A stretch of DNA of 64,000 nt from Octopus vulgaris (lineage: Eukaryota). Location: contig OX597815.1 in NCBI GenBank assembly GCA_951406725.2, forward strand, positions 191,084,001 to 191,148,000, in the 5' to 3' direction. The translations under genes were made by a program, and so were the position numbers. How positions within the stretch are numbered: position 1 is the first letter of the stretch; each line of letters starts with the position of its first letter. The notes under the pieces were generated by a model. It saw nothing but the letters and a program-made list of their open reading frames with translations, was not told where the DNA came from and did no database searches. This document shows positions 11,553-63,190 of this stretch, piece after piece.

Positions 11553-11828
11553 TCACTGTCTGGAATCGAACTCAGAATCTTGGGTTAGTAGCCCACACTC
11601 TTAACCACTACGCCATATGCCTGTGGGCATATGGCATAGTGGTTAAGAGCGCGGGCTACTAACCCCAACATTCCAAGTTCGATTCCAGACAGTGACCTGA
11701 ATAATAATCATAACATCAAAAAAAAAAAATACCTTAGGAATGAGAACCAGGGTTCGAAAGTTCCCCAAGACACCTGATGAAGGCTGGAAGGTATATCAGC
11801 TGAAATGTTGTGTTAACAACAAACAAGA
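11382..11828. mobile_element. Palindromic element: head-to-head tRNA-like heads, each arm ending in a Penelope-type hammerhead-bearing tail
   Basis: Centre gccatatgcc-tgtg-ggcatatggc at ~11622; arms are reverse complements. A box TGGCATAGTGG and B box GTTCGATTCC. CTGATGA...GAAA at 11774-11805. Confidence 0.85.
11769..11814 (+). ncRNA. Minimal hammerhead ribozyme motif, C3-G8 core
   Basis: Stem I gacac/gtgtt; CTGATGA; extra A; stem II ggctg/cagct; GAAA-tgtt, probably CpG-decayed from palindromic AACGTT. Confidence 0.65.
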
Positions 11829-27326: not shown

Positions 27327-27796
27327 ATAACCCTTTTGATACCAACCCAGCTGAAACCATCTCTCGCTCTGTAGTACAAATGTCTTGTTTTCATAAGTTT
27401 TGAATTAAAATCTTTCACCAATCCTTAGCCTCAATTTTATGTTCCTAACAGCAGCTTAATGACAACTAAGATATTTTACTAAATTCCTTGTTATAGTTAA
27501 AGTGATTGAAAGAAACACAGAGCATCTTAACAGAAATATGGTAACAAAAGGGTCAACAAATGATTAATTTAACCCTTTTGATACCAACCTGGCTGAAACT
27601 GCCTCTGGCTCTACAGTACAAATATCTTGTTTTCAAAAGTTTTGAATTAAAACCTTCCACCAAACCTTAGCCACAATTTATGTTCCTAACACCAGCTTAA
27701 TGATAACTAAGCTATTTTACTAAATTCTTTGTTATAGTTAACATTAATTGAAAGAAACACAGCATCTCAAAATAAATACAGTAACAAAAGGGTTAA
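27327..27796. mobile_element. Two tandem piggyBac-type MITEs (family 1): 27331-27552 and 27573-27792
   Basis: TTAA-like ends with cccttttgatacc...gtaacaaaaggg TIRs. Other copies at 54808-55036, ~5984-6395, ~8160-8300 and ~26965-27155. Confidence 0.8.
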
Positions 27797-27891: not shown

Positions 27892-28316
27892 ATATATCAG
27901 GACAGTTTTCTATATTTTCCTATTTATGAAGAAAATAACAGAATCATTCTGAGTTTATTATGTCTGCTTTGAAAAGCATAACTCTTTATTTTTCATTACA
28001 GTTTCATTTCTATCTTTTAAATGATTGTCATAGATCTGAAGTTCTTTCATTACCCTAAAACATTTCTTTGAACATTTTTTGTTATAGATTTGTCTTGGTT
28101 TTGTATGAATTGAGACAGATTCTATACAGGCGCGCGCGTGTGTGTGTGCACCTGTCTTTCTATCTTTATATCTACACATATATATATATATACATATATA
28201 GTAGTAGTAACAGAAAAGAGGAATTTCGGTTGTCCCCATGTGGTGGATTGTAATGTATATAAGAAAATAAAAAAAGGAAAATACACACACTTACATGGTT
28301 ATAATATAATTTTTAA

Positions 28317-28353
28317 TGTATCGACCGGTTTCGCAATCGCTATTCATGATACA
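28317..28353 (-). ncRNA. Minimal hammerhead ribozyme motif, A3-U8 core variant, intact fold
   Basis: Reverse complement: tgtatc-ATGAATA-gc gatt gc-GAAA-ccgg-TC-gataca. 6-bp stem I, palindromic ACCGGT stem III, GUC site. Lies in a ~220 bp element between (TA)n tracts. Confidence 0.75.
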
Positions 28354-28929
28354 ATGCTTAATTTATATGAATATATATTTCTTCTCAATTTTATTCACAT
28401 ATTTATTCCCCACCCAAAACCTAAACCTATATATATATATATGTATATATATGTATAGTGCAACTGGGCACTGTATATATATGTATATATTTCATTGTTG
28501 TTTTAATGTCCACTTTTCCATGCTTGCATGGGTTGGACAGATTTTCTACTGCCAGATGTCCTTCTTGTCACCAGTCCTCATCTGTTTAGGGGCATGTTGA
28601 TACTTCCTCATGCTCAGACATGTCTCCACAGCATGTTGGAAATGAGTGACACTGCTAGTATGACAGTGACATTCATTTACGACTATCATATGATGGCAAG
28701 ACATGGAGATACCAAAATAAACACACACACACACACATGTATACATATACAATGAGCTTTTTTAAGTTTACGTCTACCAAATCCACTTACAAGCCTTTGA
28801 CCAACATAGGGCTATAGTAGATGACATTTACCCAAAGTACCACACAGTGAGACAGAACCCAAAGTCACATGGTTTGGAAGCAAACTCCTTAGCCACGTAG
28901 CCACACTGCATCTATCATATATTTGTGGT

Positions 28930-29011
28930 GTGGATGGTTTAGCTTAATGGTTCAGAGCACTGCGATGCGTAATCACGGAGGTGTGAGTTCAAGTCTCATA
29001 GCCGGCCACCA
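28930..29011 (+). pseudogene. tRNA-like pseudogene or isolated SINE head
   Basis: A box TAGCTTAATGG; T-arm GTGAG-TTCAAGT-CTCAT; pairing ends gtggatggtt/agccggccac; terminal CCA followed by a T run; irregular anticodon arm. Confidence 0.55.
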
Positions 29012-45894: not shown

Positions 45895-46840
45895 TTAAAA
45901 TTTTGACACAAGAGCAGTCATTTTGTGGGGAGGGGATGAGTCGATTACATCGACCCCAGTGTTCAACTGGGACTTACTTTATCAACCCCGAAAGGATGAA
46001 AGGTAGATCCTTTCTACTTAAGGCACGAGGTCTGAAAATTAGGAGAGAGGGGTAGTCGATCGTATCAACCCAGTACTCAACTGGTACTTATTTCACCACC
46101 CTGAAAGGGTGAAAGGCAAAGTCAACCTCGGGATTTGAACTCCAAAAGTAAAGATGGACGAAATTCTATAATTCATTTTGCCCTGGAGGCTTACGATTCT
46201 GCCAGCTCGCAACCTTAATAATAATAATGATAATCTTTTCTACTCTATGCACAAGACCCGAAATTTTGGGGAGGGAACCAATCGATATGATTGACCCCAG
46301 TATGCAACTGGTACTTATTTATCAACCCCGAAAGGAAGAAAGGCAAAGATTTGAACTCATAACATAGCAGCAGACAAAATACCTCTAAGCATTTCACCCA
46401 GCGTGCTAATATAATAATAATCATAATAATAATTTTTTCTACTCTAGGCACAAGGCCTGAAATGTTTGGGGAAGGGGGCCAGTTGATTAACTCAATCTCA
46501 GTACACAACTGGTACTTAATTTATCAACCCCGAAAGGATGAAAGTCAAAGTCAACCCTGGCGGGATTTGAACTCAGAATGTAGCAGCAGATGAAATACTG
46601 CTAAGCATTTCGCCCAGCATGCTAATATGATAATAATAATAATAATATTTTCTACTCTAGGCACAAGGCCTGAAATGTTTGGGGAGGTGGGGCAGTCGAT
46701 TAGATCGACCCCAGTATGCAACTGGTACTTAATTTATCAACCCTGCAAGGATGAAAGACAAAGTCGATCCCAGCAGGATTTGAACTCAGAATGTAGCAGC
46801 AGACAAAATACCACTAAGCATTTCGCCAAGCATGCTAATA
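45895..46840 (-). mobile_element. Head-to-tail array of ~5 family B SINEs linked by (AAT)n
   Basis: Repeated tttctactcta.gcacaagg...gaccccagt...caactggtactta...ggatgaaa...gatttgaactc...gctaat units of ~190-210 bp. Confidence 0.9.
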
Positions 46841-46922
46841 TGATGATGATGATGATGATAATAATAATATTAATAATAATAATAATAATCAGAAGAATAT
46901 AAGTTGTCCTTATTAATATTAT

Positions 46923-48199: not shown

Positions 48200-50500
48200 A
48201 TAAAAATGGATAAGTCTCTCTCTCTCCTAAGGTCCCTCTTCCTATGGATATAGGGCTGGTTTTAATCATTTTCCCTTTGTCTTTTGTTGATATGTTGACT
48301 TTCCACTTTCACATGGCAAAATTGATGTGAATAGTTAATATTGACATCTCTTTTCATGGACTGTTTCAAGGTTCCCACAATGTGGGATATGCTATTAAAT
48401 GCTTTCCAGTTATCAATCCTGGCTAAACTAAAGTTTTTCCTCTTTTTACTGTTCTTCTGTTATCACCATTTCACCTGTCGCTGTTCTTTAAAGTCATGCA
48501 TCTCTTTCTGGCTTCCTTTCTATTCTTCTGTTAATATATCATTGCCCTTTGAGTATGTAACCGGTATGTTACAGAATAAACATTTGGAGCTGGCAGAAAC
48601 GTTAGCATGCCGGGCGAAATGCGTAGCCGTATTTCGTCTGCCGTTACGTTCTGGGTTCAAATTCTGCCGAGGTCGACTTTGCCTTTCATCCTTTGAGTCC
48701 TTGCAAAACCCATTGCAGCTACATTTTCAGAGCTTTCTCGCAAATGGTAAGCTCTCAGACAAGGCGGCGAGCTGGCAGAATTGTTAGCACGCCGGACGAA
48801 ATACTTAGAGGTATTTCGTCTGCCGTTACGTTCTGAGTTCAAATTCCGCCGAGGTCGACTTTGCCTTTCATCCTTTCGGGGTCGATAAATTAAGTACCAC
48901 TAACGCACTGGGGTCGATATAATCGACTTAATCCGTTTGTCAGTCCTTGTTTGTCCTCTCTGTGTTTAGCCCCTTGTGTGTAGTAAAGAAATAGGTATTT
49001 CGTCCGCCGCTGAGTTCTGAGTTCAAATTCCGCCGAGGTCGACTTTGCCTTTCATCCTTTCGGGGTCGATAAATTAAGTACCAGTTACGCACTGGGGTCG
49101 ATCTAATCGACTTAATCCGTTTGTCTGTCCTTGTTTGTCCCCTCTGTGGGTAGTAAAGATACAAATAAACATTTGGAGTTTTTTATGTTGGCATGTAAGT
49201 TATAAGCTTATTTTTTAAGGGAACCCATGGAACTTTTGTGGAATCAGTGTTATTCACTTCTCTAGCACCTATACACATATTGATTTTGGTCTGCTTACCA
49301 GTTCATTGAATGTTACTGCTACATATTCATAGGTGGTGGTCAGTTGCTTTAATCAGGAATTTTGTCAGTCCTAAATGCTTTCCATTTGCTTTTAATATAT
49401 TGGTCTTAATATATTGGTAAGTTCTTTACTGGTTATAGTGGGCCATACATGAGATGCTATCATATATATATATATGTGGGGCAGGGGGGTATTTTTTCTT
49501 TCTTTCTAATCCATTGTACTTTTTATTTTATTATACTAAATTTCTTTTTTCACCCATATTTCCACTTCATACGCTTCAATTTCTTTTGATTTCTACATTC
49601 CCTCCAGGGCTTTGTATTCTGCGAAATGTTTAAGTGTTCATTCGCATACCTTATTCTCTTAGAAGCACTCACAGTTTTTCAAAGCATCTTATCCTATTTG
49701 CTTTTTACTGACACAGTTGGTTTCAGCTTTACTTTTACCACATCTAGAGAACATCTATTTCTTTTATTGATATCATACTTTTTTTTTTATCCATATGTTG
49801 ACTCCGTCTCTTTTCAATGAAAGGCTAGGGCTTTACATTTATATATATATATATTTTTTTCAATTTATGTAGTATATTTGCTTTCTTTTTCTTTCATGGA
49901 ATGTGAACTCAAGAAGGTCTGACCCTATTAATGCCAAACCTGTTGTCCCTTGATATTATCAGTACTACAAATATATTGCATTACTCCGTATCTTTATTTT
50001 GAAGTAGTTCATTTCCATGGAGAGAATTTCTTATGGAGCCTTCTTACATTTATTTACTCTTCCATAGAGCTGCTTGTTCATATGTAACTTGAGCAGATGT
50101 TTACATTCATCCACGTTCATCTCTTGTTCCTTTCTATTTTCTTTATTGTTTCTCCTAATTCCTCCTCAATGTTAACTTCCGTTGATTCGCTGTCATGTGT
50201 GTTTTTATTGTTTGTTGTTCAAAGTGAGGCTGGAGGTATACATTTGTTGTGACTGCATTTCGCTGAATGTTTCCATGGTGACTTCTATAGCTTTCATTAT
50301 CATTTTGGATTTTAGTTATAATTTCTTTTTTCATTCTGTCTATTTTTGATTTGTTGTAACACCTTGTTTCCTCTGCTGTAGTTGTTCTCTAAGATTTCCA
50401 CTATGTTTTGAGGGCTCATCTATTGTCTCTCATCTCTGTTGTGCTGCTTTCTTTTTTCTTTCATTTTTAAAAAAAATTTTTTAACAGAATCTTATATGTT
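48200..50500 (-). mobile_element. Heavily decayed non-LTR retrotransposon (probably R4/Dong-type) RT region, interrupted by SINEs
   Basis: Minus-strand remnants resembling SLA.ID..KAF.SI.H (~48380-48430) and N..LIT.MPT (YRPITC-like, ~49185-49215); boundaries are approximate. Confidence 0.5.
48590..49163 (+). mobile_element. Composite family B SINE insertion (three units plus an unrelated spacer) under one 15-bp TSD
   Basis: TSD aataaacatttggag at 48575-48589 and 49164-49178; the units are CpG-rich and young. Confidence 0.85.
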
Positions 50501-62359: not shown

Positions 62360-63190
62360 TTCCTTCATTTGTTTCAGTCGGTTGACTGCGGCCATGCTGG
62401 AGCACCTCCTTGATGAATTTTTAGTCGAATGAATTGAGACCATTAACTTTTTTTCTTTTATTAAAGCTGGTACTTATTCTATCGGTCTCTTTTTATTCTA
62501 AACCACTAAGTTATGGGGATGTAAACGCGCCAACACTGGTTATCAAGCAGTAGTGAGGGACAAACACAAACACACACACACATACACACACGCACACACA
62601 TACACACATATATTTCTTTATTGCCCACTAGGGGCTAAACACAAAAAGGACAAACAAGGACAAAGGGATTAAGTCAATTACATCGACCCCAGTGTGTAAC
62701 TTGGATTTATTTATTCAACCCCAAAAGGATGAAAGGCAAAGTCAACCTCGGTGGAATTTGAACTCAGAACATAACAGCAAAGGAAATACCTATTTCTTTA
62801 CTACCCACAAGGGGCTAAACACAGAGAGGACAAACAAGGACAGACAAATGGATTAAGTTGATTATATCGACCCCAGTGCATAACTGGTACTTAATTTATT
62901 GACCCCGAAAGGATGAAAGGCAAAGTCGACCTCGGCTGAATTTGAACTCAGAACATAATGGCAGACAAACTACCGCTAAGCATGTTCGCCAGGCATGCTA
63001 ACGATTCTGCCAGCTCACTGCCCTCACACACACACATACACAACAGGCTTCTTTCAGTTGCTGTCTACCACCGACTCCTCTCACAAGGTTTTGGATGGCC
63101 CAAGGCTATAGCAGAAGGCACTTACCCAAGGTGTCACACAGTGGGACTGAACCTGGAACCATGTGGTTGGGAATGAAGCTTCTTACCACT
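62360..63190 (-). mobile_element. Family A SINE with a family B dimer (62612-63025) inserted in its (CA)n tract
   Basis: Family A tail at 62360-62580 and head at 63040-63190 flank two family B units. Confidence 0.85.

What the first reader, a model, noticed from the sequence alone, without database searches (positions are those of the whole stretch)
28317..28353. 37-nt intact hammerhead with A3-U8 core and GUC site
The minus strand reads UGUAUC AUGAAUA GCGAUUGC GAAA CCGG UC GAUACA. Every element is in place: 6-bp stem I, tiny stem II, palindromic ACCGGU and the preferred GUC triplet. Its CpGs are retained in an otherwise CpG-poor region, suggesting a young copy. This is the best candidate in the window for real activity.
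Basis: partly seen in the sequence, partly recalled or inferred. Interest (0 to 1): 0.75.

Follow-up and report, generated by a model that had tools for sequence, protein, structure and literature searches.

The report
Retrotransposon hammerhead with swapped core pair
This 37-letter motif is one of more than 800 copies of a predicted self-cutting RNA at the tail of a Penelope-type jumping gene; its usual C-G core pair is replaced by A-U while a sister family carries U-A, so the pairing is likely kept by selection, but this lone truncated copy would probably cut poorly on its own.

Summary
The motif is there as described and beyond chance. It is not a unique site. It is the minimal type I hammerhead in the 3' pseudo-LTR of a Neptune-type Penelope-like retroelement (RT plus C-terminal GIY-YIG). 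The genome holds 78 exact copies and 815 cores with A at position 3. The window copy is a 188-nt, 5'-truncated and inverted fragment in a (TA)n tract; one sequencing run shows what looks like the empty site. A3-U8 is fixed in the family (84 of 88 cores). A sister family, about 60% identical in protein, has U3-A8 (71 of 71) and a different stem I; a tandem retrozyme has C3-G8 or U3-A8. So the 3-8 pair and stem I covary. The CpG argument for youth fails. A lone copy is predicted not to fold actively, and published PLE hammerheads cut weakly, as dimers or with protein help. Natural A3-U8 was not found in the papers I could search; three key papers were not held. This scan noted A3-U8 before in another genome (e1-9564841). 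New variant of a known kind; modest interest.

The parts
28317..28353 (-). Minimal type I hammerhead motif, A3-U8 core pair, 2-bp stem II, palindromic stem III
   Evidence: 78 exact genomic copies, reversed control 0; covariation
28341..28347 (-). Core strand A3 U4 G5 A6 A7 U8 A9 (A3 = 28347, U8 = 28342)
   Evidence: A3 in 41 of 42, U8 in 42 of 42 protein-picked copies; position 7 varies A/U
28324..28329 (-). Self-complementary ACCGGU, predicted to form stem III between two hammerheads
   Evidence: sequence; double-hammerhead dimer -18.1 kcal/mol vs +1.1 for the monomer with stem III
28322..28323 (-). Predicted cut site, 3' of C17 (28323) in a GUC triplet; not shown experimentally
   Evidence: position in the hammerhead consensus; sequence
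28201..28388 (-). 3'-terminal 188 nt (3' UTR / pseudo-LTR) of a Neptune-type Penelope-like element, ending in (TAC)n
   Evidence: 93.7% over 190 nt to L023, whose upstream part encodes RT and GIY-YIG
28383..28426 (+). Inverted 44-nt piece from further upstream in the same element (5' inversion)
   Evidence: 88.6% to the L023 3' UTR in the opposite orientation
28167..28200 (.). (TA)n-type microsatellite at the element's 3' end (target)
   Evidence: the same kind of flank in nearly all copies
28428..28457 (.). (TA)n-type microsatellite at the 5' side of the insertion

Best explanation
The motif is a hammerhead-shaped sequence in the 3' pseudo-LTR of a Neptune-type Penelope-like retroelement, and it likely acts in the parent element's tandem transcript as a slow self-cutting RNA that would need a second hammerhead or the element's protein, while this truncated solo copy is probably a passenger. 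Shown: the family, its RT and GIY-YIG frame, the fixed 3' end 122 nt past the predicted cut, the head-to-tail fusion of that end to the ORF start in longer copies, and covariation of the 3-8 pair and stem I between families. Inferred: reverse transcription is primed at (TA)n and starts inside the RNA near the pseudo-LTR/ORF junction, then reads through an uncut hammerhead; A3-U8 replaces C3-G8 as a Watson-Crick pair; two ACCGGU palindromes pair to make stem III. Untested: any cleavage.
For: Fixed 3' ends, variable 5' truncation and 5' inversions in (TA)n. Upstream RT with YLDD (Pfam RVT_1 E 1.1e-6, 28.9 bits, just under the 29.6 cutoff), a C-X4-C-X2-C linker and GIY-YIG (E 1.6e-6, above cutoff) in one 635-aa frame. 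7 of 30 loci picked by the ORF 5' end have a same-strand hammerhead 116-262 nt upstream of that piece. A3-U8 in 84 of 88 cores from loci picked by protein or a downstream motif; U3-A8 in 71 of 71 cores of the sister family, whose protein is about 60% identical and whose 3' UTR gives no BLAST match. On 12 aligned motifs all 6 stem I pairs and the 3-8 pair change on both sides; slid controls score far lower. Core and short-stem columns are 97% uniform vs 90% in the flanking UTR. PMC4209133 and PMC11167929 report this anatomy, weak or protein-assisted cutting, and internal RT initiation on uncut RNA in other PLEs.
Against: No cleavage data. No Rfam match and no folding signal. With 20 nt of flank the best fold pairs the core with an upstream complement. 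The intended dimer (-18.1) is not the best dimer fold (-20.6). No locus with two same-strand hammerheads around a complete ORF was found (0 of 8 extended loci). The excess of 5' breakpoints at the cut site in this family was not repeated in the sister family. The alignment was hand-picked and its scaffold was fixed by the search pattern, so its shuffle counts are not probabilities.
Confidence: 0.8

Rival explanations
1. This very copy is an efficient, stand-alone ribozyme that cuts a host transcript.
For: All core positions and a 6-bp stem I are intact; the insertion may be recent.
Against: Stem III cannot close in a monomer; no partner in the window; single PLE minimal hammerheads showed no detectable cutting in PMC4209133 and none without protein in PMC11167929; 78 identical copies show that intactness is the family state.
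Confidence: 0.05
2. The motif is a dead or non-catalytic relic: kept as a protein-binding or dimerisation structure, with A3-U8 crippling chemistry.
For: Genomic copies keep the uncut junction. Hammerhead mutants did not affect insertion in vitro in the anole PLE (PMC11167929). No convincing footprint of cutting among 5' breakpoints.
Against: G5, A6, A9, G12, A13, A14, A15.1-U16.1 and C17 are kept between families that have lost other UTR similarity, and positions 3 and 8 change together; the 3-8 pair belongs to the catalytically active fold (PMC3884650, passages).
Confidence: 0.12
3. The hammerheads cut unit-length RNA that is circularised, and the circle is the template for reverse transcription.
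For: Head-to-tail fusion of 3' end and ORF start, with a fixed genomic end inside the cut-to-cut unit, fits the model proposed in PMC4209133.
Against: The same layout follows from internal initiation on an uncut tandem transcript, which was shown in vitro for another PLE (PMC11167929). Religation would restore the same junction, so DNA copies cannot tell the two apart.
Confidence: 0.15
4. Chance resemblance to a hammerhead.
For: z = 0.19; no Rfam hit; 11-12 fixed letters only.
Against: 0 of 60 shuffles match; position in a PLE pseudo-LTR; compensatory changes across families.
Confidence: 0.02

Closest known systems
Minimal type I hammerheads of metazoan Penelope-like elements (Cervera and De la Pena 2014, PMC4209133; read: main text parts 1-2 of 4, supplementary PDF parts 1-2 of 3)
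   Same: Type I, in the pseudo-LTR downstream of RT and GIY-YIG, mostly solo truncated copies and opposite-strand pairs, palindromic short stem III, G10.1-C11.1, natural 3-8 covariation (U3-A8 in Schistosoma).
   Different: A3-U8 core: not among the 56 motifs of Fig. S3 as extracted (C3-G8 in most, U3-A8 in two, U3-G8 in one). Stem II is only 2 bp rather than the long stem II described, and there is no extra base between 9 and 10.1.
PAc (Poseidon) hammerhead of the green anole (Frangieh et al. 2024, PMC11167929; read: parts 1-2 of 4)
   Same: Hammerhead near the pseudo-LTR/ORF junction, genomic 3' ends fixed at an internal site downstream of the cut, AT-rich targets.
   Different: There the core is C3-G8 and overlaps the start codon; here it lies about 145 nt before the candidate ATG, with A3-U8, in a Neptune-type element.
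Neptune clade of EN+ Penelope-like elements (Craig et al. 2021, PMC8557442; read: passages and two supplement rows per term)
   Same: C-terminal GIY-YIG with two cysteines inside the core, CX2-5CxxC linker, microsatellite targeting, inverted 5'-truncated partner copies, hammerhead near the 3' end.
   Different: Nematis shares the linker and was not excluded; no tree with named references was built.
Non-LTR retrozymes (PMC7229834, passages; bioRxiv 10.64898/2026.07.22.740005, part 1 of 5)
   Same: A ~359-bp tandem repeat in this genome carries a type I hammerhead with the same GAAACCGGUC end, with C3-G8 or U3-A8.
   Different: The finding itself is not in a tandem repeat; it is the tail of a coding element.
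Short-stem-III PLE hammerheads that cleave as dimers (Lunse, Weinberg and Breaker 2017)
   Same: Palindromic short stem III and dimer cleavage, as summarised in PMC6765202 (passages).
   Different: The paper itself was not held; whether its large alignment already holds A3-U8 members is unknown.

Membership tests
Hammerhead ribozyme, type I minimal | Core U4 G5 A6, A9, G12 A13 A14, A15.1-U16.1, H17 | tested here: met
   (40-42 of 42 copies at each position)
Hammerhead ribozyme, type I minimal | C3-G8 as written in the consensus CUGANGA | tested here: not met
   A3-U8 instead
Hammerhead ribozyme, type I minimal | Watson-Crick pair between positions 3 and 8 | tested here: met
   A-U in 84 of 88, U-A in 71 of 71 sister cores; C-G in the retrozyme
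Hammerhead ribozyme, type I minimal | Stem I closing the motif, supported by compensatory change | tested here: met
   6 of 6 pairs change on both sides; the inner 4 pair in 11-12 of 12 rows, the outer 2 in 4 and 8 of 12
Hammerhead ribozyme, type I minimal | Stem II with G10.1-C11.1 | tested here: met
   2 bp; largely invariant, so no covariation support
Hammerhead ribozyme, type I minimal | Palindromic short stem III allowing a dimer | tested here: met
   ACCGGU; dimer model -18.1 kcal/mol
Hammerhead ribozyme, type I minimal | Site-specific self-cleavage | not testable with these tools
   no raw RNA reads listed; breakpoint proxy inconclusive
Canonical (tertiary-stabilised) hammerhead, Rfam families | Match to an Rfam hammerhead model; loop I-loop II contacts | tested here: not met
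   no hammerhead family at E up to 10 in 28200-28430
EN+ Penelope-like element | RT followed by C-terminal GIY-YIG in one frame | tested here: met
   L061, 635 aa; in related copies, not in the window copy
EN+ Penelope-like element | Partial-tandem pseudo-LTR, 5' truncation, inverted 5' partner | tested here: met
Neptune clade | CX2-5CxxC linker before GIY-YIG and microsatellite targeting | tested here: met
   C-X4-C-X2-C in the translations; (TA)n flanks
Neptune clade | RT phylogeny placing it with Neptune rather than Nematis | not tested
   no named reference sequences were fetched
Non-LTR retrozyme | Short non-coding tandem repeat with a hammerhead in each unit | tested here: not met
   solo copy, coding parent

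The most novel reading that the evidence does not exclude
A3-U8 is a naturally fixed, working core pair not yet described in print, used as a brake: it keeps the retroelement RNA uncut long enough to be copied, and cutting is switched on by pairing through the ACCGGU palindrome that the A3-U8 family shares with the U3-A8 sister family and with tandem retrozymes, so that one family's RNA could license cutting of another's in trans.
Probability: 0.1. Interest if true: 0.65.

Novelty: new variant of a known kind. Interest (0 to 1): 0.32.

Why it matters
Hammerheads in Penelope-like elements are known, and their role is still open. This genome offers a natural series on one scaffold: A3-U8, U3-A8 and C3-G8 (no G3-C8), in families that each spread to many copies. 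That makes it a ready test set for how much catalytic speed a PLE needs, and it shows that descriptors fixed on CUGANGA or UUGANAA miss a family of over 800 copies. The single window copy has no special standing.

Tried and rejected
1) 5' breakpoints as a footprint of cutting. In the A3-U8 family 12 of 86 copies begin within 5 nt of the predicted cut, 7 at 0/+1. But all 7 are of the older type whose post-cut sequence is an ATATAT run (7 of 51 vs 0 of 35, counted by hand; Fisher p 0.04), other clusters exist further upstream, and the sister family shows 5 of 101 within 5 nt, about its background (12/86 vs 5/101 p 0.04). Microhomology with the (TA)n target explains this as well as cutting does: inconclusive. 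2) CpG retention as a clock: rejected. 3) A-to-I editing as the source of three A>G changes in the window copy: no strand asymmetry among singletons (A>G 4.2 vs T>C 4.5 per 1000, p 0.59). 4) Expression: no RNA holder on record was listed; contigs of runs guessed to be RNA cover family sequence and one 116-nt contig in X1 lies on 28265-28374 with 3 differences, but contigs show neither strand nor ends nor which copy. 5) Metagenome scan: 2 matches, both GC-rich prokaryote-like DNA without stem I or PLE protein match: chance. 6) G3-C8 on this scaffold: 0 matches; A3-U8 with a longer stem II: 7 matches. 7) An intact master with two same-strand hammerheads: none in 14 + 8 extended loci. 8) Rfam on the whole window: top 150 of 194 rows held no hammerhead, 44 rows not shown. 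9) Global alignment of the two families' 3' UTRs did not even align the hammerheads. 10) Papers not held: Lunse 2017, Przybilski and Hammann 2007, Nelson and Uhlenbeck 2008; file 1 of the PMC4209133 supplement could not be searched and bioRxiv supplements are closed. These may already report A3-U8.

Full report
Observation. It parses as a type I hammerhead: 6-bp stem I, A3-U4-G5-A6-A7-U8-A9, a 2-bp stem II with a 4-nt loop, GAAA, the palindrome ACCGGU in place of stem III, and C17 at 28323. A descriptor that asks for any Watson-Crick pair at 3-8 finds 2 sites in the window; only this one has six Watson-Crick pairs in stem I, and none of 60 shuffled windows gave such a hit. Folding energy (z 0.19) and Rfam give no support, as expected for a motif this small.

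Copy number. The surrounding 231 nt gave 1422 candidates in the window's own 2.8-Gb genome, of which 40 were scored. The exact 37-mer occurs 78 times, the reversed control 0 times. The core pattern with A at position 3 occurs 815 times, and 98 of the 100 listed have U8; with C, G or U at position 3 it occurs 29 times, none with C3-G8. The host looks like an octopus; that label rests on my recall of its repeats, on genome size and on earlier notes of this scan, not on a test here.

The element. Copies share a fixed 3' end in (TAC)n followed by (TA)n, 122 nt past the predicted cut, and have variable 5' ends, often with an inverted piece. Walking upstream leads to a GIY-YIG domain, a C-X4-C-X2-C linker and an RT with YLDD; locus L061 has all three in one 635-aa frame (RVT_1 E 1.1e-6, just below the curated cutoff; GIY-YIG E 1.6e-6). 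This is the layout of Neptune-type Penelope-like elements in PMC8557442 (passages read); Nematis was not excluded. The hammerhead starts 265 nt after the stop codon. In 7 of 30 loci picked by the 5' end of the ORF, a same-strand hammerhead lies 116-262 nt upstream of the query piece, and the element's 3' end runs straight into the ORF start, a candidate ATG following 22 nt later: the head-to-tail pseudo-LTR. No locus with two same-strand hammerheads around a complete ORF was found. The window copy is the last 188 nt (28388-28201) plus a 44-nt inverted piece (28383-28426) between two (TA)n tracts; no other family copy lies in the window.

Selection and covariation. In 42 of 50 protein-picked loci that span the motif, core and short-stem columns are 97% uniform against 90% outside; position 7 and loop II vary, as they may. 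In loci picked without using positions 3 and 8, 84 of 88 cores are A3-U8. A sister family has U3-A8 in 71 of 71 cores; 18 of 25 of its loci match the ORF at mostly 54-66% amino-acid identity, BLAST similarity stops before the 3' UTR, and its stem I is a different sequence that still pairs. The U3-A8 pattern has 1648 matches, including a second kind of repeat. That second kind is a ~359-bp tandem repeat, retrozyme-like, with C3-G8 (115 matches to the pattern, 7 in the control) or U3-A8. G3-C8 was not found. On 12 hand-picked motifs all six stem I pairs and the 3-8 pair change on both sides (covariation score 0.47 vs at most 0.15 for slid partners); two rows were picked for a non-A at position 3 and break the pair, and the scaffold was fixed by my search, so the shuffles are no probability. 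All my patterns fixed GAAACCGGTC, so the sharing of the palindrome with the retrozyme is partly ascertainment.

Age. The CpG argument fails: 2 of 3 family CpGs outside the motif are lost in this copy, and over 85 copies CpG sites change no faster than other C and G. The copy differs at 5 of 188 positions from both close subfamilies. In run X10 one contig matches the left flank with 0 differences over 363 nt (depth 49) and another joins 28148 to 28472 with 27 other letters (depth 37), which looks like the empty site. So the insertion may be polymorphic; X10 is of unrecorded kind and the joint lies beside skipped repeats.

Mechanism. Shown here: family, anatomy, covariation. From papers: single PLE minimal hammerheads did not cut, and dimers cut weakly (PMC4209133); the anole PLE hammerhead cut only with protein, its mutants did not affect insertion, and reverse transcription started inside an RNA spanning the pseudo-LTR/ORF junction (PMC11167929). 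The fixed end just before the ORF start, with an intact hammerhead junction in the copies, fits that model. Predicted here: the monomer with stem III closed costs +1.1 kcal/mol (probability 5e-6), the double hammerhead is -18.1 against -20.6 for the best dimer, and with 20 nt of flank the core pairs with an upstream complement. I therefore read the motif as a slow, dimer- or protein-dependent ribozyme of the parent transcript (0.8). Rivals: non-catalytic structure (0.12), cut-and-circle replication (0.15, not exclusive), active solo copy (0.05), chance (0.02). A test for a genomic footprint of cutting was inconclusive: 12 of 86 5' breakpoints within 5 nt of the cut here, but tied to an ATATAT run and not repeated in the sister family (5 of 101).

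Novelty. PLE hammerheads are known. Natural U3-A8 is reported (PMC3088659, section on core variation; PMC4209133), and G3-C8 as an engineered rescue (PMC11167929). Natural A3-U8 was not found by searches, nor among the 56 motifs of Fig. S3 of PMC4209133. Three papers most likely to mention it were not held. Verdict: a real PLE hammerhead with an unusual but compensated core; new variant of a known kind; interest 0.32.

Noticed in passing
G000:C1:20002278-20004542 and many others (L124-L143, L150, L151, L153, L159): A ~359-bp tandem repeat (retrozyme-like) with a type I hammerhead; subfamilies carry C3-G8 or U3-A8, a second independent 3-8 swap. No match to the PLE protein.
   Followed up: partly
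L144-L172, L304-L390: Sister PLE family with U3-A8; one subtype lacks the first base after the cut, leaving an unpaired U next to the core. Some copies carry a ~35-nt 3' tail that others lack.
   Followed up: partly
window 11769-11814 (+): A second, unrelated minimal hammerhead-like motif with C3-G8, a longer stem II and a GUU triplet; probably another PLE family.
   Followed up: no
window 28347-28341 with 28369-28363 (-): A 7-nt complement of the core strand lies about 20 nt upstream and is predicted to sequester it; partly kept in older subfamilies.
   Followed up: partly
L074:2640-3600, L069:2452-3300: Longer copies carry a further coding stretch upstream of the RT, rich in charged residues, broken by frameshifts; unit length about 4.2 kb or more.
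   Followed up: no
L106, L097, L112, L122, L116: Single copies of further diverged families with the same scaffold and other stem I sequences; L106 (U3-A8) has a GIY-YIG remnant upstream.
   Followed up: partly
window 28933-29007 (+): tRNA-like match (Rfam E 0.003), likely the head of a SINE.
   Followed up: no
window 27328-27793, 46348-46844, 48809-49148, 62611-62958: Tandem duplications of 184-242 bp repeat units, several SINE-like.
   Followed up: no
family-wide (85 copies): CpG sites in this retroelement do not decay faster than other sites, which suggests little CpG methylation of these copies in the germ line.
   Followed up: partly
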